From Myxococcota bacterium (lineage in GTDB: Bacteria > Myxococcota > XYA12-FULL-58-9 > JALHOP01): a DNA stretch of 64,000 nt. Shown in pieces: positions 54,302 to 60,156 of the stretch. The stretch spans positions 1 to 64,000 of the forward strand of contig JBGGMJ010000010.1 in NCBI GenBank assembly GCA_041288095.1, written 5' to 3'. Made by a program: the position numbers and the translations under genes. Position 1 is the stretch's first letter. Each line of letters starts with the position of its first letter. The notes beneath the pieces are model-generated. The model was not told where the DNA came from, made no database searches, and saw only the letters and a list, made by a program, of their open reading frames with translations.

Positions 54302-55411
54302 CTACAGGCGGACACCATCAAGCGGCAAGATGTCGTAGGCGCTCACCGGGACGCGGTTGATGTCGCCGTCGATGAGCAAGAGCGAGGTTTCGGCGTGTGG
54401 CACGCTCCCTACGCGATAGCGGACGTCCTCTCCGTCGACCGACAAGCAGCGAATGAAGCCGGCGACGGCGTTGGCCGCGGAGACGTCGGTCCAGCGCGGC
54501 ATTTCTTTTACGCAGCGCGCGTGGCTGGTGTGGCCGCAAGCCTGGCGCAGGTTCGGAACGAGGGTGCGTGGGTCGAAGCGGCGCACCCGCTCGGGGTTCA
54601 TCTCCCAGTGACGATCGAGGATACCGTCCCGGTCGGGGTCAGCCGGGCGGTGGTAGACGAGGCCGCCGCCTTCGTGGCCGCTGGTGCCGAAGACGCACAA
54701 CGGTGCGAGGTCGAGCTCGGCGTTTTCGCCGCGCTGCCAGGCCGGAGCCACGCGGCTCACCGCGTAGCGTAAGAACCGATTCAGATCGTCGGCAATCGTG
54801 GGCACCGTGGTCGCGCTGCTGCCGGCGTTGGCGAGGTCCACGGTGGTGACGCCGGCATGGGTTACCAGGAGATCGCAGCCCTCTCGAGCCGCGGCGACGG
54901 CGAAGCCGACTCGACCTTCGGAAAGAAGTGCCCGCAATAGCGTTCGTTGCTCGACCATGAACGACGAGAAGTCGCGCAACGCGACCTCGGGCGTGGGGAT
55001 CCGCGGGTAGGTCGCCAGGAACCTGTCGCGCAGCTCGGGCCGCTGCACCACCTGACGCGCGAAGCGCTGCGCCTCACGAAACCCTTCATCGGTCTCGAAG
55101 GCGAGCTCCTGGACACGCGCCAGGTCGTGATTGCCCAGCAAGACCACTGTTTGCTCCGGCGGATGCTCGGCGAGCCAACGCACGATGCGCGTGCCTTCGT
55201 TACCGACGACATGCGCGTTCGATTCGTCGACAACACCGAAGTCGAAGTAGTCGCCCACCGTCACTAGGCCGACGTCGTTCGCGAGCAGCCCATCACGTAG
55301 TAGATCGTGGTGCGCCAGCACCTGCATGAAGCGGTCGAAAGTGGTCTGCAGATCGCCGATCGCAAACCAACGCCTGTCGGTGCGCAGGGTCTTCATCGGG
55401 GGCCTTCGCAT
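54302..55411 (-). CDS. calcineurin-like metallophosphoesterase
   Basis: GDLQ, GDYFD, GNHD, THAG, GHT motifs. Confidence 0.8.
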   Translation of the reverse strand: MRRPPMKTLRTDRRWFAIGDLQTTFDRFMQVLAHHDLLRDGLLANDVGLVTVGDYFDFGVVDESNAHVVGNEGTRIVRWLAEHPPEQTVVLLGNHDLARVQELAFETDEGFREAQRFARQVVQRPELRDRFLATYPRIPTPEVALRDFSSFMVEQRTLLRALLSEGRVGFAVAAAREGCDLLVTHAGVTTVDLANAGSSATTVPTIADDLNRFLRYAVSRVAPAWQRGENAELDLAPLCVFGTSGHEGGGLVYHRPADPDRDGILDRHWEMNPERVRRFDPRTLVPNLRQACGHTSHARCVKEMPRWTDVSAANAVAGFIRCLSVDGEDVRYRVGSVPHAETSLLLIDGDINRVPVSAYDILPLDGVRL

Positions 55412-55438
55412 CGTACGACGGATGTGGTCAAAGCGGCT

Positions 55439-55810
55439 ATGGGTCTCTTACTCGCCTGGTTCGTCTTGTCCCTCGCCGTCTGGGTGACCTCGCTCATCCT
55501 CCCGGGCTTCAAGGTCCGCGGGTTCGCCGGTGCCATCATCGTGGCCGCGGTCTTCGGCATCCTCAACTACCTCGTCGGTTGGCTGCTCTTCGTCGTCATC
55601 GGCATCGGCACCCTGGGCCTCGGTTTCTTGCTCGCCTTCATCACCCGCTGGGTCGTCGACGCCATCCTTCTCAAGGTCACCGGCGCCATGATGCGATCGC
55701 TCGAAGTGAAGAGCTTCGGCTGGGCCATGGCGGCGGCGTTCGTGATGGCGATGATCGGCACCGTCGCCGAGCACATGCTGGCGCACGGCCATCATCCCTA
55801 CCGGTTCTGA
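55439..55810 (+). CDS. YvlD / phage holin 4-2 family membrane protein
   Basis: LPGFKVRGF.GAIIVAAVFGILN, TLGL, four TM segments. Confidence 0.88.
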   Translation: MGLLLAWFVLSLAVWVTSLILPGFKVRGFAGAIIVAAVFGILNYLVGWLLFVVIGIGTLGLGFLLAFITRWVVDAILLKVTGAMMRSLEVKSFGWAMAAAFVMAMIGTVAEHMLAHGHHPYRF

Positions 55811-55860
55811 AAGACGAATAATTGGATCCGGGCCCGCCCACACTGTAAGCTCGCAGTTCT

Positions 55861-56349
55861 ATGACGGCAGACCATCCATTCCGCTGGATTGGTGGTGCGG
55901 CGCTCGTGGTGGGATTGTTCGTGCTCGGCGCGACGTCCTTCCAGAAGCAGCCGCAGGCGCTCGCGTTGACGCTGGAGCGGACGGCCGTCAGCTACGCCCA
56001 GACCCGCGCCGAAGCCGTCGCCAAGGCGAGTCTCCCCGTCGCCGCGACAAAAGTGGCCTCTCGCCCGGCGGTGCCGCGTAAGGTCAGCGAGCGTATCGCA
56101 CGAGTCCCGTTTGCTCCCGAGTCTTGCATGACCATCACCGCGTTGGATGGCATTTCGGGCATGAGCGCGCCGTCATCCGGCGGCGATGAGCTGACGCGCA
56201 CGTTGCGCGCGCACGCCCGCGCCTCGGCGCCGGCCGACGCCGTGCCGACGCGTGATGTGCGCACGATTCACGGCAACCAAATCGCGAGCTTCCCGCCTTC
56301 GGTGGTTCTCTTGGCCTCTCGGCCACTGCGCGGACCCCCGTCAGTCTAG
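55861..56349 (+). CDS. hypothetical membrane-anchored/secreted protein with C-terminal RGPP (candidate arrest peptide)
   Basis: N-terminal hydrophobic segment; ends LASRPLRGPPSV-stop. Confidence 0.6.
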   Translation: MTADHPFRWIGGAALVVGLFVLGATSFQKQPQALALTLERTAVSYAQTRAEAVAKASLPVAATKVASRPAVPRKVSERIARVPFAPESCMTITALDGISGMSAPSSGGDELTRTLRAHARASAPADAVPTRDVRTIHGNQIASFPPSVVLLASRPLRGPPSV

Positions 56350-56452
56350 TCTTGTCCGCCACCAGGCGGGTCAGTCCACTATCGCGTTCTGTTTTAGCAG
56401 TCTCACACACGGTCACGTCATGACGGCGTGATCTTCGTTCGGAGTTTCAGCC

Positions 56453-57121
56453 ATGCATGAGGCAGCAGAGTTCTACCGCGCCGGCGGTATTTGGATGCAC
56501 CCGATCACGATCGTTTCGATCTTCGTGCTGGGTATCTCGTTCGAGCGCATCTATTCGCTGTACTTCAAGTACAACATCAACGCGTCGCAGTTCATGGCGC
56601 AGATCCAGAAGCTGGTTCTGACCAACAACATCGACCGCGCCATCAAGCTCTGCAACGCTTCGCCGCAGGCCGCTCTGCCGCGCGTCATCAAGGCAGCCCT
56701 GACTCGCGCCAACAAGGGCGAGGTCGAGATCGAGAACGCGCTGGAAGAAGCGAGCGTCGAGGTCCTCCGCGACATCGGCAAGCGCATTCCGATTCTTCCC
56801 AACCTCGCGAACGTCGCGACGCTGTGCGGCCTCCTCGGCACCATCGTCGGTCTGATCGAAGCGTTCACCGCGGTCGCGTCCGCTCCGCCGGACATGAAGA
56901 GCCAGCTGCTCACGCAGTCGCTCGCGATCGGTCTGAACGCCACGGCGCTCGGTCTCATCGTCGCCATTCCGGCGCTCTTGTTCTTCGTGTTCTTGAGCAC
57001 GTCGTCGAAGAAGATCATCGAGGACGTCGACCAGTATTCGCTCAAGATCCAGAATCTCCTGGTTGCGCGCAGCCGCAATCCGCAAGCGATTCAGTCGGCC
57101 GAGCAGGCGACCGGGGGCTAA
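56453..57121 (+). CDS. MotA/TolQ/ExbB proton channel protein (AglR-like)
   Basis: ATLCGLLGTIVGLI and GLNATALGLIVAIP. Confidence 0.95.
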   Translation: MHEAAEFYRAGGIWMHPITIVSIFVLGISFERIYSLYFKYNINASQFMAQIQKLVLTNNIDRAIKLCNASPQAALPRVIKAALTRANKGEVEIENALEEASVEVLRDIGKRIPILPNLANVATLCGLLGTIVGLIEAFTAVASAPPDMKSQLLTQSLAIGLNATALGLIVAIPALLFFVFLSTSSKKIIEDVDQYSLKIQNLLVARSRNPQAIQSAEQATGG

Positions 57122-57124
57122 GCC

Positions 57125-57766
57125 ATGTCGTTCTCACCGTCGAGCCGTAACCGAGAAGAGCTCGGTGAGGTCGCGATCAACCTCAATCCGATGATGGACA
57201 TGTTCGCGGTGCTCATTCCGGCACTGCTCATGCTGTCAGCGGTCGTCGAGGTAGCGATCGTCGAGGTGTCGGCGCCGTCGATCGGTCCCTCCAGCGAGCC
57301 ACCGCCCAAGGAAGACAAGCCGCCGCTCAACCTGACAGTCACCATCTTGGATAGTGGCTACATGTTGACGGCGTCCGGTGGTGAGCTCTCGGGCGTCCCC
57401 AAGGTCGATGCGAATGCGCCACAAGCGCAGATCCCGATCAAGGAGATGCCCGTGGTGTGCTCGCGCTATCGCGGGACGACACCACCGCCTCGCTCGCGCA
57501 ATGGCGATCGCCCTCAGTGCGACGATAAGAACGCGCGCGACGCGGTGATGTTCTGGGCCTACGACACCGAGACGCTGAACCAAGCGATCTTGAAGATCCA
57601 CCGCGACTATCCGGACGAGCGACGACTCATCGTCGCCGCCGAATCCAGTGTGCAATACGAGAGCATCATGGACACGCTCGACGCGACGCGTGTAACGCGC
57701 CTCGCCGACGGGTCGCTCGAAACGATGTTCGACCAAGTGGTGCTGTCTCCAGCGACCAACATGTGA
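57125..57766 (+). CDS. ExbD/TolR family protein (AglQ-like)
   Basis: INLNPMMDMFAVLI with conserved Asp; VQYESIMDTLDA. Confidence 0.9.
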   Translation: MSFSPSSRNREELGEVAINLNPMMDMFAVLIPALLMLSAVVEVAIVEVSAPSIGPSSEPPPKEDKPPLNLTVTILDSGYMLTASGGELSGVPKVDANAPQAQIPIKEMPVVCSRYRGTTPPPRSRNGDRPQCDDKNARDAVMFWAYDTETLNQAILKIHRDYPDERRLIVAAESSVQYESIMDTLDATRVTRLADGSLETMFDQVVLSPATNM

Positions 57767-57777
57767 GGTTGTGAACA

Positions 57778-58407
57778 ATGTCGACTGAAAACGACCCGGC
57801 ATCGCTGTCCAACGCCGGCGGACCTGGAATGGTGGCTGGACACGTACGCTCGCAAGACGAGCTCTATTCGGAGATGCGCGCTCGCGAGAAGAAGAAGGCG
57901 AAGCGCATGCGCCGCAAGACGGCGCACGACCATCCTGTCGACGTGAGCATCAACTCCTTGCTCGACATCTTGAGCGTCATCCTCGTCTTCTTGATGAAGA
58001 GCTACTCGGCGAGCAGCGTGAATATCAAGCCGTCGAAAGAGCTGCAGATCCCCTTCACCAAGTCGATCACGGCGCCAGCCGAGGCGACGGCGGTGACAGT
58101 GACCCTCAAGCACATCTTGGTCGACGATGTGCCGATCATGGATCTGGAAGAGGGTGGCAAGGTTCGCCCCCAGGACCTCGCGGAAGAGCAGATGATGCTC
58201 CAGCCGCTCTACAACAAGCTCCTCGACGAGGTCGAAAAGCGTAAGAAGATCATGCAAAGGAACACGTCGGTCGAGGCCAAGATCGACATGACGCTGATCG
58301 CCGACCGCTTCGTGCCTTTCGACCTCCTGACACGTGTGATGTACACGGCCGGCCAAGCCGAGTTCTCCAAGTTTGATTTCATCGCCATAAAGCTCGAAGG
58401 CGGCTGA
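57778..58407 (+). CDS. ExbD/TolR family protein (AglS-like)
   Basis: INSLLDILSVILVFL; ADRFVPFDLLTRVMYTAGQAEF. Confidence 0.9.
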   Translation: MSTENDPASLSNAGGPGMVAGHVRSQDELYSEMRAREKKKAKRMRRKTAHDHPVDVSINSLLDILSVILVFLMKSYSASSVNIKPSKELQIPFTKSITAPAEATAVTVTLKHILVDDVPIMDLEEGGKVRPQDLAEEQMMLQPLYNKLLDEVEKRKKIMQRNTSVEAKIDMTLIADRFVPFDLLTRVMYTAGQAEFSKFDFIAIKLEGG

Positions 58408-58464: not shown

Positions 58465-59097
58465 ATGCTCGACTACCTCATTGCTGGTGGACCCTTCATG
58501 TTCGCGACGCTCAGCGTCTCGATCTTGTGCGTCGCAATCTTCATCCTGCGCATCGTGTATCTGTGGCGGCGCGCCGGTAAGGGCGAGCTGCTGCGGTCGC
58601 AGGTGATGCAGTTCGTCGAGGAGCGCAACTACCGCAACGCCATCCGCGTGGTGAGCGGCAACAACTCGCCTCTCGGCAAGGTTCTGCAAGCGGCGCTCGT
58701 CCGCGCCAACCGCAGCGAGAAAGAAATCCGTCGCGCTGTCGAGTCGGCGGCGATCGAAGAGATCCCGAAGGTCCGCGGCGCTACCGTCTACCTGCCGCAG
58801 CTATCCAACTTGGCGACGCTCCTCGGCCTCCTCGGCACCATCGAAGGTCTGATCGTTACCTTCCAGGGTGCGTCAGGCGAAAGCGCCGCGGTCCGTCAGG
58901 AAGCTCTGGCGCGCGGTATTTCGATCGCGTTCTACAACACGTTCTTCGGTCTGCTCGTCGCGACGATGGGCGTCGTGTTTTACCTCGTGCTCCTGGCCCG
59001 CACGAACACCGTCCTCGGTCTCATCGAGCGGTCCGCTGCAACGGTCATCGACTCGTTGCTGTGGACGCGCGAACAACCGGGCAAGAAGAGCGCCTAA
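58465..59097 (+). CDS. second MotA/TolQ/ExbB protein
   Basis: ATLLGLLGTIEGLI, GISIAFYNTFFGL. Confidence 0.93.
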   Translation: MLDYLIAGGPFMFATLSVSILCVAIFILRIVYLWRRAGKGELLRSQVMQFVEERNYRNAIRVVSGNNSPLGKVLQAALVRANRSEKEIRRAVESAAIEEIPKVRGATVYLPQLSNLATLLGLLGTIEGLIVTFQGASGESAAVRQEALARGISIAFYNTFFGLLVATMGVVFYLVLLARTNTVLGLIERSAATVIDSLLWTREQPGKKSA

Positions 59098-59103
59098 GAC
59101 TCC

Positions 59104-59676
59104 ATGTCGGCTCCAAACAAAGGCATCGGCGCCGGTTTGTTCGGCAAAGAGTCCGGAACGAGCTACGAGGTCTATCTCAACCTGACGCCCTTGATGGACG
59201 TCATGTCGAACCTCCTGTTCTTCCTCCTGGCCTCCTTCGGCGCGACCATGGTCGCGATCATGCCGACCACGGTGCCTACGGTCTCGAGCGGTGAGTCACC
59301 GCCGGATCCGGAGAAGAACGAGGACTCGGTCAACGTCACCCTGCGCGCCGACGGCACGGGGATCACCCTCAAGTGCGAGAGCGACACGCTAGCGCCCGAT
59401 CTCTTGAAGGACCTCGGCGGCAAGATCCCGAAGAAGGACGGCCTCTACGATTAAAAGCAGCTCACCGCGACGTTGAAGTCCATCAAGGAGAAGTACCGCG
59501 CCTCGAAGAGCGTGGTCGTGGTCCCTGACGACAACGTGCCTTACGAGGTTATCGTCAAGATCCTCGACGCCGCGCGCGATACGCGGCTCGTCGATACCAA
59601 AAACGCCATCCTGTTTCCTGACGTCGTGCTGTCCGGCATAGCGACACATGACGCGGACGGAAACCTACTGAAGTAG
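59104..59676 (+). pseudogene. ExbD/TolR family gene interrupted by an in-frame TAA at 59452-59454
   Basis: LNLTPLMDVMSNLL N-half and VVPDDNVPYEVIVKILDAAR C-half are in the same frame, separated only by TAA. Confidence 0.85.
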
Positions 59677-59685
59677 AGGTCGATC

Positions 59686-60156
59686 ATGGCTGGTGGTGGC
59701 GGTGGAGATGGTGAATACGACGTCAATATCAACTTGACGGCGCTCCTCGACATTCTCACCAACCTGCTCTTCTTCTTGATGGTCGGCTTCATGTCGTCGA
59801 AGGCTTCGATGGAGCTCGACGGCGGTATGGAGCTGCCGACCTCGACGGCTCAGCTCGAGCCCAAGAAAGCCGTGCAGGTGACCGTGGCGCGCAAAGAGCT
59901 GCGCGTCGAGAAGGAAGTCATCGCGCAGCTGCGTGACGGCAAAGTGGTCGCCGCCAAGTCGCAAGAGGGCAAGATCGACCCGCTCCTGCAGCGCTTGCAG
60001 ATCATCCGCAAAGAAAAGAACGCCACGGGTCCCGAGGCCGACATCCTCTTCGTGCTTTGCGACAAAGACACCCCCTACGGATTACTGCGCCGCGTCATGA
60101 TGACAGCAGCGGAAGCCGGCTATCCCAAGTTCCGTATGGCCGTGCTTATGCAGTAG
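59686..60156 (+). CDS. ExbD/TolR family protein (AglS-like)
   Basis: INLTALLDILTNLL; DKDTPYGLLRRVMMTAAEAGY. Confidence 0.92.
   Translation: MAGGGGGDGEYDVNINLTALLDILTNLLFFLMVGFMSSKASMELDGGMELPTSTAQLEPKKAVQVTVARKELRVEKEVIAQLRDGKVVAAKSQEGKIDPLLQRLQIIRKEKNATGPEADILFVLCDKDTPYGLLRRVMMTAAEAGYPKFRMAVLMQ

What the first reader, a model, noticed from the sequence alone, without database searches (positions are those of the whole stretch)
55861..56452. Candidate RGPP ribosome-arrest 'monitoring substrate' in front of an AglRQS/ExbBD-like motor cluster
Seen: a 162-aa ORF with an N-terminal hydrophobic targeting segment (WIGGAALVVGLFVLGA), a low-complexity Ala/Pro/Ser linker and a C-terminus ...LASRPLRGPPSV-stop (RGPP at 56329-56340). 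It lies 103 nt before the first ExbB gene. The spacer holds two hairpins: CCGCC-ACCA-GGCGG (56356-56369) and a 9-bp stem (56411-56433) next to the GGAG RBS. Established: SecM, ApdA/ApdP-type peptides and the DUF2946 protein CruR combine an N-terminal localisation signal with C-terminal RAGP/RAPP/RGPP-like stalling motifs to control the downstream gene. Inference: a force-sensing uORF may couple envelope export or PMF status to expression of a proton-driven ExbB-ExbD-ExbD motor. I know of no such target for arrest peptides.
Basis: partly seen in the sequence, partly recalled or inferred. Interest (0 to 1): 0.82.

Follow-up and report, generated by a model that had tools for sequence, protein, structure and literature searches.

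The report
RGPP stalling leader before ExbB-ExbD genes
A small membrane-anchored protein gene in front of a proton-motor (ExbB/ExbD) operon ends in a strictly conserved ribosome-stalling motif (Arg-Gly-Pro-Pro), so it is most likely a regulatory leader of an already described kind, here facing a target not described in the papers searched.

Summary
ORF 55861-56349 encodes 162 aa with an N-terminal hydrophobic helix and ends ...LLASRPLRGPPSV-stop. It lies 103 nt before an exbB-exbD-exbD-exbB-exbD-exbD cluster.

All 10 aligned relatives, down to 36% identity, keep the N-terminal anchor and the tail VL[LI][AT][AS]RPxRGPP + 2 variable residues + stop (one has 9). The linker diverges. In one metagenome relative ExbB is 95% identical but the ORF only 38%, with linker dN/dS about 0.8. 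The RGPP codons differ synonymously. No fold, Pfam or NCBIfam family was found.

The RNA part is weaker. Hairpin 1 is a window-only 22-nt insertion. Hairpin 2 is conserved with compensatory changes but leaves the GGAG free.

This fits the published class of RAPP/RGPP arrest peptides upstream of diverse genes (Fujiwara 2025; CruR). I file it as a new member of a known kind with a new target class. Arrest and regulation are untested. The family was found only in one Myxococcota genus and a few metagenome relatives. This scan has noted RAPP/RGPP leaders before on other DNA, with other targets.

The parts
55813..55855 (+). Conserved promoter-like element upstream of the ORF: GACGAATAATTGGATCC (55813-55829) and TGTAAGCTCGCA (55844-55855). 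There is no Shine-Dalgarno between it and the ATG, so the transcript may be leaderless or nearly so. This is an inference.
   Evidence: Both blocks are identical in 4 of 4 genomes of the genus while the flanks differ. The sigma-70 consensus scan found 0 promoter-like sites in 55200-56600, so the promoter reading is inferred only.
55861..56349 (+). Leader ORF (uORF), 162 aa: candidate RGPP-type translation-arrest peptide.
   Evidence: Searches give the ORF. GC3 is 0.80. It is conserved in 3 of 3 congeneric genomes, in 7 metagenome proteins and in distant relatives P0009, P0011 and P0013. No Pfam or NCBIfam family matched.
55885..55941 (+). N-terminal hydrophobic segment (residues 9-27): a signal anchor or an uncleaved signal peptide.
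   Evidence: The hydropathy maximum is at residues 10-26. AlphaFold2 predicts a helix at 8-26. The segment is kept in P0011 and P0013.
56305..56340 (+). Conserved C-terminal block V-L-L-A-S-R-P-L-R-G-P-P (residues 149-160). This is the presumed tunnel-resident arrest sequence.
   Evidence: L150, R154, P155, R157, G158, P159 and P160 are invariant in 10 of 10 sequences, against 8 invariant columns in the other 150 positions. Third-codon positions vary.
56329..56340 (+). RGPP core. The predicted stall has Pro159 (CCC, 56335-56337) in the P site and Pro160 (CCG, 56338-56340) in the A site.
   Evidence: The position is read. The P/A-site assignment is by analogy with RAPP peptides and the CruR toeprint (PMC12992588). 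It was not measured here.
56350..56371 (+). A 22-nt insertion found only in this window. It carries hairpin 1 (CCGCC-ACCA-GGCGG, 56356-56369).
   Evidence: It is absent from the 4 other loci aligned.
56411..56433 (+). Conserved hairpin 2 (9 bp, loop AUGAC), ending 7 nt before the SD. Its role is open: an RNA polymerase pause site, a processing site or a stability element are possible.
   Evidence: It is present in the centroid fold of 5 of 5 loci. 97.7% of 44 cells are paired and 2 pairs show compensatory changes; 39 of 500 shuffles reach this value.
56441..56444 (+). GGAG Shine-Dalgarno of exbB1, inside the invariant stretch TCGTTyGGAG. No conserved helix sequesters it.
56453..57121 (+). exbB1, a MotA/TolQ/ExbB-family proton channel.
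   Evidence: Pfam PF01618, E 3.8e-22. NCBIfam TolQ and ExbB models match only below their cut-offs.
57125..58407 (+). exbD1 (57125-57766) and exbD2 (57778-58407).
   Evidence: Pfam PF02472. The gaps between genes are 3 and 11 nt.
58465..60156 (+). Second set: exbB2 (58465-59097), exbD3 (59104-59676, with an in-frame TAA at 59452-59454) and exbD4 (59686-60156).

Best explanation
The ORF is a regulatory leader, an RGPP-type translation-arrest peptide, that heads the exbB-exbD-exbD-exbB-exbD-exbD operon.

Proposed steps; all are inferred unless marked as shown:
1. Transcription starts at the conserved element just upstream of the ORF.
2. The N-terminal hydrophobic segment takes the nascent chain to the membrane.
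3. When Pro159 is in the P site and Pro160 in the A site, the tunnel-resident ...VVLLASRPLRGP chain blocks peptide-bond formation, as in RAPP/RGPP peptides.
4. How long the stall lasts depends on what happens to the exported or inserted part of the chain, for example pulling by Sec/YidC-dependent, PMF-assisted translocation.
5. The parked ribosome sits 7 nt before the stop codon, at the peak of a C>G-rich stretch. It favours expression of exbB, most likely by keeping Rho off the untranslated spacer, as shown for CruR, rather than by opening an SD-sequestering helix.

What is shown here: the anatomy, the conservation pattern, selection at peptide level, conserved synteny, and the presence of rho in the genome.
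For: Conservation pattern
- RGPP is invariant in 8 of 8 close relatives and in 10 of 10 sequences including relatives at 36-44% identity.
- The only dense run of invariant columns is L150, R154, P155, R157, G158, P159, P160.
- The 2 residues after RGPP vary among 9 of the 10. The stop codon varies among the 5 loci read as DNA. One member has a 9-residue tail.

Selection at peptide level
- RGPP codons differ synonymously: CGC GGA CCC CCG, CGT GGA CCG CCG, CGC GGT CCC CCG, CGT GGC CCA CCT.
- In the C-terminal block dN/dS is 0.14 at dS 2.2 against L051.

Fast evolution of the protein body
- Against L051, ExbB is 211/221 identical (95%) and ExbD1 84%.
- The ORF is only 56/149 identical (38%) and its linker 20/75 (27%, dN/dS 0.81).
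- No confident fold was predicted: AlphaFold2 mean pLDDT 51.9, pTM 0.18; the Atlas model has pLDDT 0.43.
- No Pfam or NCBIfam family matched.

Synteny
- The ORF lies 79-103 nt before the same exbB in 5 of 5 distinct loci.

Literature (sections read)
- RGPP is the most robust, EF-P-refractory core. It is enriched near the C-terminus of small secreted or membrane proteins upstream of diverse genes. 7 of 7 Streptomyces lividans candidates arrested (PMC12992588).
- R125GPP and R109GPP peptides arrest in vitro, and a Myxococcales QAPP peptide also arrests (PMC10987492).
- CruR arrest at RAPP prevents Rho termination in a long intergenic region that has a C>G bubble (PMC9426467).

Local features that fit a Rho model
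- A C>G bubble of up to +14 points spans about 56200-56420.
- The spacer C/G ratio is above 1 in 5 of 5 loci, ranging 1.05-1.56.
- rho is present at 698.6 bits, above the family cut-off.

Weak lead only
- SecM clusters are among the nearest language-model look-alikes (score 0.94, 161 shared features).
Against: - No experiment or transcript data exist. Arrest, its release and any effect on exbB are all unshown.
- No conserved structure sequesters the exbB SD, so the classical SecM/MifM/VemP mechanism has no support here.
- The Rho model rests on a modest C>G bias. exbB itself also has negative GC skew.
- Within the genus the linker is under purifying selection (dN/dS 0.13-0.40). Blocks such as SGGDELTRTLRA and AVPTRDVRTIHGNQ are conserved there, which arrest alone does not need.
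- The anchor lies about 130 residues from the stall site, so membrane insertion of the anchor itself cannot supply the pulling force.
- Only 5 distinct loci and about 10 sequences from one narrow lineage are available, and they are not independent.
- The four closest ExbB orthologues outside the genus (68-79% identity) have no such ORF (0 of 4), so the motor does not need it.
Confidence: 0.6

Rival explanations
1. The ORF encodes a genuine small membrane or periplasmic accessory protein of this ExbB/ExbD motor, playing a TonB/TolA-like anchor or output role. Its C-terminal RPxRGPP would be a binding or stability motif rather than a regulatory stall.
For: - It sits where tonB often sits, directly upstream of exbB-exbD (recalled, not tested).
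- It has an N-terminal anchor.
- Within the genus the whole length is under purifying selection (dN/dS 0.19-0.41) and has conserved internal blocks.
- A cluster auto-named 'putative Energy transducer TonB' is among the nearest language-model look-alikes (score 0.94, a lead only).
- In the paralogous clusters of the order this position is held by a real-looking small secreted protein.
Against: - No TonB_C or any other Pfam or NCBIfam domain matched.
- No confident fold was predicted.
- The linker evolves almost neutrally against L051 while ExbB stays 95% identical.
- It is not homologous to the small secreted protein of the paralogous clusters (hhalign probability 0.2%).
- The most conserved part is exactly a motif that bacterial proteomes avoid because it stalls ribosomes (PMC12992588).
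Confidence: 0.2
2. Arrest does occur, but its purpose is not on/off regulation. The arrested, membrane-anchored nascent chain would tether the polycistronic mRNA to the membrane, so that ExbB and ExbD are inserted and assembled together. This resembles XBP1u-type pausing in eukaryotes (recalled).
For: - The exbB SD is free in all 5 folds, so no switch is evident.
- All six downstream products are membrane proteins encoded 3-57 nt apart.
- The anchor and a late stall site are the two strongly conserved features.
Against: - Purely inferential.
- I found no bacterial precedent in the papers read.
- It does not explain the conserved hairpin 2 or the long spacer.
Confidence: 0.1
3. The ORF is translated, but RGPP causes only an ordinary polyproline pause that EF-P relieves, with no regulatory consequence. 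Alternatively, the ORF is a chance open frame.
For: - High-GC genomes have many open frames, and RGPP occurs 31 times in a crude ORF set.
- Arrest efficiency of RAPP-like peptides depends on the ribosome species and, in part, on sequence context (PMC12992588).
Against: - GC3 is 0.80.
- dN/dS is below 1 in every segment measured, and the start Met and frame are conserved in distant relatives.
- A harmless pause gives no reason for RGPP to be invariant together with the preceding RP and LL.
- RGPP arrest is reported to be refractory to EF-P (abstract of PMC12992588).
Confidence: 0.05

Closest known systems
RAPP/RGPP ('RQH family') arrest peptides: ApdA, ApdP, uDF_RQH_Enterobacterales (R125GPP), uA_RQH_Pseudomonadales (R109GPP), and the seven Streptomyces lividans RAPP/RGPP proteins (PMC7897499, listing and abstract only; PMC10987492, passages; PMC12992588, sections 13-14 and passages)
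   Same: - A small protein (<300 aa) with an N-terminal localisation segment.
- An R-G-P-P core a few residues before the stop.
- A conserved stretch just N-terminal of the core and a divergent body.
- A co-directional downstream gene.
   Different: - No sequence homology to any named member was detected (no Pfam or NCBIfam hit).
- The downstream gene is an ExbB/ExbD proton-motor operon. It is not sec, yidC, a metal-homeostasis gene, a thioredoxin gene or an ECF sigma gene.
- Arrest is untested.
CruR (DUF2946) of Bordetella pertussis, upstream of the TonB-dependent transporter BfrG (PMC9426467, abstract and passages)
   Same: - An exported uORF product of about 145 aa that heads an operon.
- R-x-P-P three residues from the end.
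- A long untranslated spacer (162 bp there, 79-103 nt here).
- A C>G bubble spanning the ORF's 3' end and the spacer.
- A target belonging to the TonB-type energy-transduction world.
   Different: - No CXXC motif. The single Cys89 is not conserved.
- No DUF2946 match.
- RGPP instead of RAPP.
- The target is the inner-membrane energiser family, not an outer-membrane receptor.
- Rho dependence is untested.
Monitoring substrates SecM, VemP and MifM
   Same: - An N-terminal export or insertion signal with a stall near the C-terminus.
- Overall size similar to SecM and VemP (sizes recalled).
- SecM clusters are among the nearest language-model look-alikes (a lead only).
   Different: - The downstream gene is not part of the protein-localisation machinery.
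- No conserved helix hides the downstream SD.
- No PF06558 match.
TonB (encoded upstream of exbB-exbD in many bacteria; recalled)
   Same: An N-terminal membrane anchor, an Ala/Pro-containing linker, and a position directly before exbB.
   Different: No TonB_C domain or fold. The body evolves nearly neutrally.
Membrane RGPP proteins upstream of YcnI/DUF1775 genes (a class named in PMC12992588; seen here in L044, L047 and L050)
   Same: The extended tail is almost the same: V-F-L-[TA]-A-R-P-x-R-G-P-P followed by 3 residues and a stop. My search pattern required this tail.
   Different: These are unrelated multi-helix proteins of about 300 aa. Their downstream gene is DUF1775 (E 3.1e-44). The contigs differ in composition and look actinobacterial to me; that label is my impression and was not tested.

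Membership tests
RAPP/RGPP-type regulatory arrest peptides | An R-[AG]-P-P core close to the C-terminus of a small (<300 aa) protein | tested here: met
   RGPP occupies residues 157-160 of 162. It is invariant in 10 of 10 relatives.
RAPP/RGPP-type regulatory arrest peptides | An N-terminal localisation signal (signal peptide or TM segment) | tested here: met
   The hydropathy maximum is at residues 10-26 and a helix is predicted at 8-26. The segment is kept in P0011 and P0013. No dedicated signal-peptide predictor was available, so cleavage and topology remain open.
RAPP/RGPP-type regulatory arrest peptides | The motif and adjacent residues are conserved while the rest diverges | tested here: met
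   7 invariant columns fall in residues 150-160, against 8 in the other 150 positions. The linker is 27% identical with dN/dS 0.81 against L051.
RAPP/RGPP-type regulatory arrest peptides | A co-directional downstream gene in conserved synteny | tested here: met
   exbB lies 79-103 nt downstream in 5 of 5 distinct loci.
RAPP/RGPP-type regulatory arrest peptides | Peptidyl-tRNA accumulation or a toeprint with the third and fourth motif codons in the P and A sites, abolished by R-to-A or P-to-A changes | not testable with these tools
   This needs in vitro translation and toeprinting.
RAPP/RGPP-type regulatory arrest peptides | Expression of the downstream gene depends on the arrest | not testable with these tools
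   No RNA run was listed. Reporter assays are needed.
Sec/YidC monitoring substrates (SecM, MifM, VemP) | The downstream gene encodes a component of the localisation machinery that the peptide monitors | tested here: not met
   The downstream genes are MotA_ExbB and ExbD family members.
Sec/YidC monitoring substrates (SecM, MifM, VemP) | The downstream SD is sequestered in a helix that the stalled ribosome opens | tested here: not met
   GGAG is unpaired in all 5 centroid folds; the minimum-free-energy folds pair it at most weakly, in a helix of 2-4 bp. The one long-range helix proposed by RNAalifold involves exbB codons, not the SD, and is broken in L051.
CruR / DUF2946 | A DUF2946 domain with a conserved CXXC metal-sensing motif | tested here: not met
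   No Pfam hit. There is no CXXC, and the single Cys89 is not conserved.
CruR / DUF2946 | Rho-dependent termination in the spacer, relieved by arrest | tested here: inconclusive
   A C>G bubble spans about 56200-56420, the spacer C/G ratio is 1.05-1.56 and rho is present. There is no functional test.
TonB | A C-terminal TonB_C domain (PF03544) after a Pro-rich spacer | tested here: not met
   No Pfam or NCBIfam hit. No folded C-terminal domain was predicted.
AglRQS gliding motor (for the downstream genes) | Orthology to Myxococcus xanthus AglR, AglQ and AglS | not tested
   Only family-level assignment to MotA_ExbB and ExbD was made. TolQ and ExbB equivalog models match only below their cut-offs. 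No M. xanthus sequences were compared.

The most novel reading that the evidence does not exclude
The leader would be a monitoring substrate for the proton-driven motor itself, or for the PMF that feeds it. The nascent, membrane-anchored chain would be pulled either by PMF-dependent translocation or by engagement of its conserved N-terminal helix with free ExbB/ExbD complexes. Stall duration would then report motor or energy status and set transcription of the six stator genes through Rho. That would be the first arrest-peptide feedback loop on a MotA/ExbB-type motor. A second RGPP leader in the same genome sits in front of an RND efflux pump, which is also PMF-driven. This hints at a lineage habit of gating PMF consumers in this way.
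Probability: 0.15. Interest if true: 0.75.

Novelty: new member of a known kind. Interest (0 to 1): 0.5.

Why it matters
Arrest peptides were long thought to guard only the Sec/YidC machinery. Work from 2022-2025 widened this to metal uptake, redox and sigma-factor genes. A conserved RGPP leader in front of an ExbB/ExbD stator operon would extend the principle to proton-driven envelope motors.

It is also a compact test case: a 162-aa ORF, an 80-100-nt spacer and one conserved hairpin. It could show whether the CruR-type mechanism, in which a stall blocks Rho, is the general solution when the downstream ribosome-binding site is not sequestered.

It also flags an unannotated gene family in uncultured Myxococcota that gene callers label 'hypothetical'.

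Tried and rejected
1. Homology to the small secreted protein (KVIRLEAIKVEGRIQKPQAFYILQRS...) that precedes the paralogous or orthologous exbB clusters was rejected. hhalign probability is 0.2%.
2. Hairpin 1 as a regulatory element was rejected, because it is a window-only insertion.
3. SD sequestration was not found.
4. No intrinsic terminator lies in the spacer. The only two terminator-like hits are the same short stem inside the ORF on either strand, which is no more than the shuffles give.
5. No Rfam family matched. The single hit had E 0.94.
6. Expression data: no RNA holder was listed.
7. A wider family was sought without success:
   - The single-protein search found it in 4 of 61 genomes, all in one genus.
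   - The profile search of 401 phylum genomes gave strong matches in the same 4 only. Five further matches (E 2e-4 to 9e-3) were short pieces inside frames of 159-1761 aa. I did not inspect them.
   - The genome-contig scan returned the 3 congeners.
   - The profile search of 1.84 billion representatives gave 8 hits. Three were long proteins with many matched stretches (P0010, P0012, P0014). I took them for low-complexity matches without inspecting them.
8. The search for related loci on metagenomes with alignment A3 failed because it had no conserved stretch to search with. A degenerate DNA pattern search replaced it. Of its 8 hits, 3 (L045, L048, L049) do not have the motif near the end of a credible ORF. 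I set those aside as chance without further analysis.
9. The structure prediction gave no confident model (pLDDT 51.9), so no fold search was run.
10. No complex prediction was attempted.
Full report
**What is there**

- An ATG at 55861 opens a 162-codon frame that ends with TAG at 56347-56349.
- Residues 157-160 are RGPP (CGC GGA CCC CCG, 56329-56340), followed by Ser, Val and the stop.
- The most hydrophobic stretch is residues 10-26. AlphaFold2 draws a helix at residues 8-26.
- The frame looks coding for this genome. Its GC3 is 0.80, against 0.80-0.90 for the neighbouring genes.
- After a 103-nt spacer comes a tight cluster of six genes:
  - MotA_ExbB at 56453-57121
  - ExbD at 57125-57766
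  - ExbD at 57778-58407
  - MotA_ExbB at 58465-59097
  - ExbD at 59104-59676
  - ExbD at 59686-60156
- The gaps between these genes are 3, 11, 57, 6 and 9 nt.
- NCBIfam TolQ and ExbB equivalog models match only below their cut-offs. I therefore call the genes ExbB/ExbD-family stators and make no claim that they are AglRQS or Tol.
- Record titles of the three congeneric genomes name uncultured Myxococcota or Bdellovibrionales MAGs.

**Is the ORF real, and what is conserved**

The ORF has no Pfam or NCBIfam family. Relatives were found as follows.
- 7 metagenome proteins at 69-88% identity.
- 3 of 3 other genomes of the genus, and none of the 57 other order or phylum genomes searched with the single protein.
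- A profile search of 1.84 billion representatives added three distant members: P0009, P0011 and P0013, at 36-44% identity in A2.
- That search also returned three long proteins with many matched stretches, which I did not inspect.

In the 10-sequence alignment A2 the invariant columns are V21, P31, L36, V43, A46, A52, A54, A66 and then L150, R154, P155, R157, G158, P159, P160.
- That is 7 invariant positions within residues 150-160, against 8 in the other 150 positions.
- The tail reads VL[LI][AT][AS]RPxRGPP.
- Two variable residues and a stop follow in 9 of 10. One member (P0001) has 9 residues after RGPP.
- The start Met and the N-terminal M-x-A-[DE]-x-P-x-x-W-[IL]-G anchor are kept in P0011 and P0013.
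- The RGPP codons differ at third positions between loci, and the stop codon varies among TAG, TGA and TAA. Selection therefore acts on the peptide, not on an RNA motif.

**The sharpest contrast**

A degenerate pattern for the tail found 8 metagenome stretches. Two are family members: L046, whose ORF and ExbB match those of congener G001, and L051, a distant one.

In L051 the ORF lies 80 nt before the same operon. Comparing the window with L051 gives:

| Region | Identity | dN/dS or dN |
|---|---|---|
| ExbB | 211/221 (95%) | dN 0.05 |
| ExbD1 | 84% | |
| whole ORF | 56/149 (38%) | dN 0.71 |
| linker, residues 61-145 | 20/75 (27%) | dN/dS 0.81 |
| residues 146-160 | | dN/dS 0.14 at dS 2.2 |

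A protein body that drifts almost neutrally beside a nearly frozen partner gene is hard to reconcile with a folded structural subunit. Only its anchor and last dozen residues are held. This is what is expected of a leader whose working parts are a targeting segment and a tunnel-resident stall sequence.

Against this reading, within the genus the linker is under purifying selection (dN/dS 0.13-0.40). It also has conserved blocks, so it may carry a sensor function or a second role.

Structure prediction gave no confident fold (mean pLDDT 51.9, pTM 0.18; Atlas model pLDDT 0.43). With only 10 sequences this is weak evidence.

**RNA features**
- The spacer does not fold better than shuffled sequence (z -0.42, -0.92).
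- Hairpin 1 lies in a 22-nt insertion (56350-56371) that the four other loci lack.
- Hairpin 2 (56411-56433) appears in the centroid fold of 5 of 5 loci.
  - On the aligned stems 97.7% of 44 cells pair.
  - Two pairs show compensatory double changes (C-G to U-A; U-A to C-G) and the loops differ.
  - With five sequences, 39 of 500 shuffles do as well, so support is modest.
- Hairpin 2 ends 7 nt before GGAG. GGAG sits in an invariant TCGTTyGGAG stretch and is not tied up in any conserved helix.
- RNAalifold proposed one long-range helix between ORF codons and exbB codons 6-10. It joins two protein-constrained stretches and breaks in L051, so I give it no weight.
- The SecM/MifM/VemP-style mechanism of unmasking the ribosome-binding site is therefore not supported.

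**An alternative mechanism with a precedent**

In Bordetella, CruR's stall at RAPP keeps Rho from terminating in a long spacer marked by a C>G bubble (PMC9426467, abstract and passages). Three local features fit this:
- A C>G bubble of up to +14 points runs from about 56200 to 56420. It covers the ORF's 3' end and the first two thirds of the spacer.
- The spacer C/G ratio exceeds 1 in 5 of 5 loci, ranging 1.05-1.56.
- The genome encodes Rho (698.6 bits).

This is suggestive only, because exbB itself also has negative GC skew.

**Transcription start**

Upstream of the ORF, two blocks are identical in 4 of 4 genomes while the flanks vary: GACGAATAATTGGATCC and TGTAAGCTCGCA. No Shine-Dalgarno precedes the ATG.

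I infer a promoter with a very short or absent leader. The consensus scan did not call one.

The spacer contains no element conserved in all five loci apart from hairpin 2 and the SD. That speaks mildly against a dedicated exbB promoter.

**Distribution**

ExbB relatives occur in 21 of 22 genomes of the order. I surveyed the upstream region of 30 fetched loci.
- 4 loci carry the RGPP ORF: the window and its three congeners.
- 13 loci carry an unrelated small secreted protein (…KVIRLEAIKVEGRIQKPQAFYILQRS…). These include a second, paralogous cluster in each congener.
- 13 loci carry neither. Among them are the four closest out-of-genus orthologues (68-79% identity).

The leader is thus a recent, lineage-restricted addition to one of two paralogous stator clusters. 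It is not homologous to the secreted protein (hhalign probability 0.2%).

**Comparison with what is known**

From PMC12992588 (Fujiwara et al. 2025) I read the abstract, sections 13 and 14, and passages. It reports that:
- RAPP and RGPP give robust arrest that EF-P does not relieve.
- These motifs are depleted from proteomes but enriched near the C-terminus of small secreted or membrane proteins.
- 7 of 7 S. lividans candidates arrest.

PMC10987492 (passages) shows in vitro arrest by R125GPP and R109GPP peptides and by a Myxococcales QAPP peptide upstream of secA.

The present ORF meets every sequence-level criterion of this class. The functional criteria could not be tested.

It is not a DUF2946/CruR member, because it has no CXXC motif and no Pfam hit. 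It is not a TonB, because it has no TonB_C domain.

On the target:
- The words ExbB, ExbD, TolQ, MotA, 'biopolymer' and 'proton' do not occur in the main text of PMC12992588.
- No paper in the searched library holds both 'arrest peptide' and 'ExbB'.
- A second search combining translation-arrest terms with TolQ and ExbD returned only papers in which TolQ and ExbD occur 0 times.
- The figure panels and appendix lists of downstream gene classes in PMC12992588 were not visible to me, so the class may already be tabulated there.

This scan has also logged RAPP/RGPP leaders on other DNA with other targets.

**Verdict**

The arrest-peptide reading is well supported by comparative evidence but is experimentally open. 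The hairpin-based control idea is not supported. PMF or force sensing remains speculation.

I put 0.6 on a regulatory RGPP arrest leader. Within that reading I prefer a Rho-type mechanism over a switch at the ribosome-binding site. I put 0.2 on a structural accessory protein, 0.1 on arrest used for membrane tethering of the mRNA, and 0.05 on an inconsequential pause or a chance frame.

This is a new member of a known kind with a target class not named in the text I could read. Interest is moderate.

Noticed in passing
G000:C60:8905-9276, minus strand (= L052:3906-4277:-): A second RGPP leader candidate exists in the same genome. It is a 123-aa ORF with an N-terminal hydrophobic segment that ends ...SQWLVHPARGPPLS-stop. 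It lies 51 nt upstream of a 1058-aa AcrB-family RND pump (PF00873, E 3.7e-290). Congener G002 keeps it (71% identity...SQWLVLAARGPPST-stop) before the same pump. It was not found in G001 or G003 with this query.
   Followed up: partly
window 59452-59454: exbD3 carries an in-frame TAA where three congeners have a Tyr codon and an intact 190-aa gene. The window therefore reads it as two pieces (59104-59454 and 59473-59676). This is either a nonsense mutation or an assembly error.
   Followed up: partly
L013-L015, L017, L019-L021, L023-L028 (for example L026:1099-1332): In 13 of 30 exbB loci of the order, a 76-98-aa secreted protein directly precedes exbB (one longer call of 156 aa). It has a nearly invariant core KVIRLEAIKVEGRIQKPQAFYILQRSNLNFEGLELKQSF and a C-terminal PF, and it often follows a TPR-like protein. 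One member scanned against NCBIfam gave no match; Pfam was not tried.
   Followed up: partly
L044:3149-4057, L047:1454-2356, L050:5375-6652: Three high-GC metagenome contigs encode a multi-helix membrane protein ending ...VFL[TA]ARPxRGPP plus 3 residues. Each lies directly before a DUF1775 (YcnI-type) gene. This is the published YcnI-upstream RGPP class, and its extended tail is nearly the same as in the ExbB leader. My pattern selected for that tail.
   Followed up: partly
window 55813-55860: Two sequence blocks just upstream of the ORF are identical in 4 of 4 congeners, and no Shine-Dalgarno precedes the ATG. This may be a promoter giving a leaderless or near-leaderless transcript. The consensus scan did not call it.
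   Followed up: partly
window 56350-56371: A 22-nt insertion directly after the stop codon is present only in this genome.
   Followed up: yes
window 55307-55810 (+) and 54302-55411 (-): The upstream neighbours are a Phage_holin_4_2-family membrane protein (co-directional, ending 50 nt before the ORF) and a divergent metallophosphoesterase. Both neighbours are kept in the three congeners.
   Followed up: no
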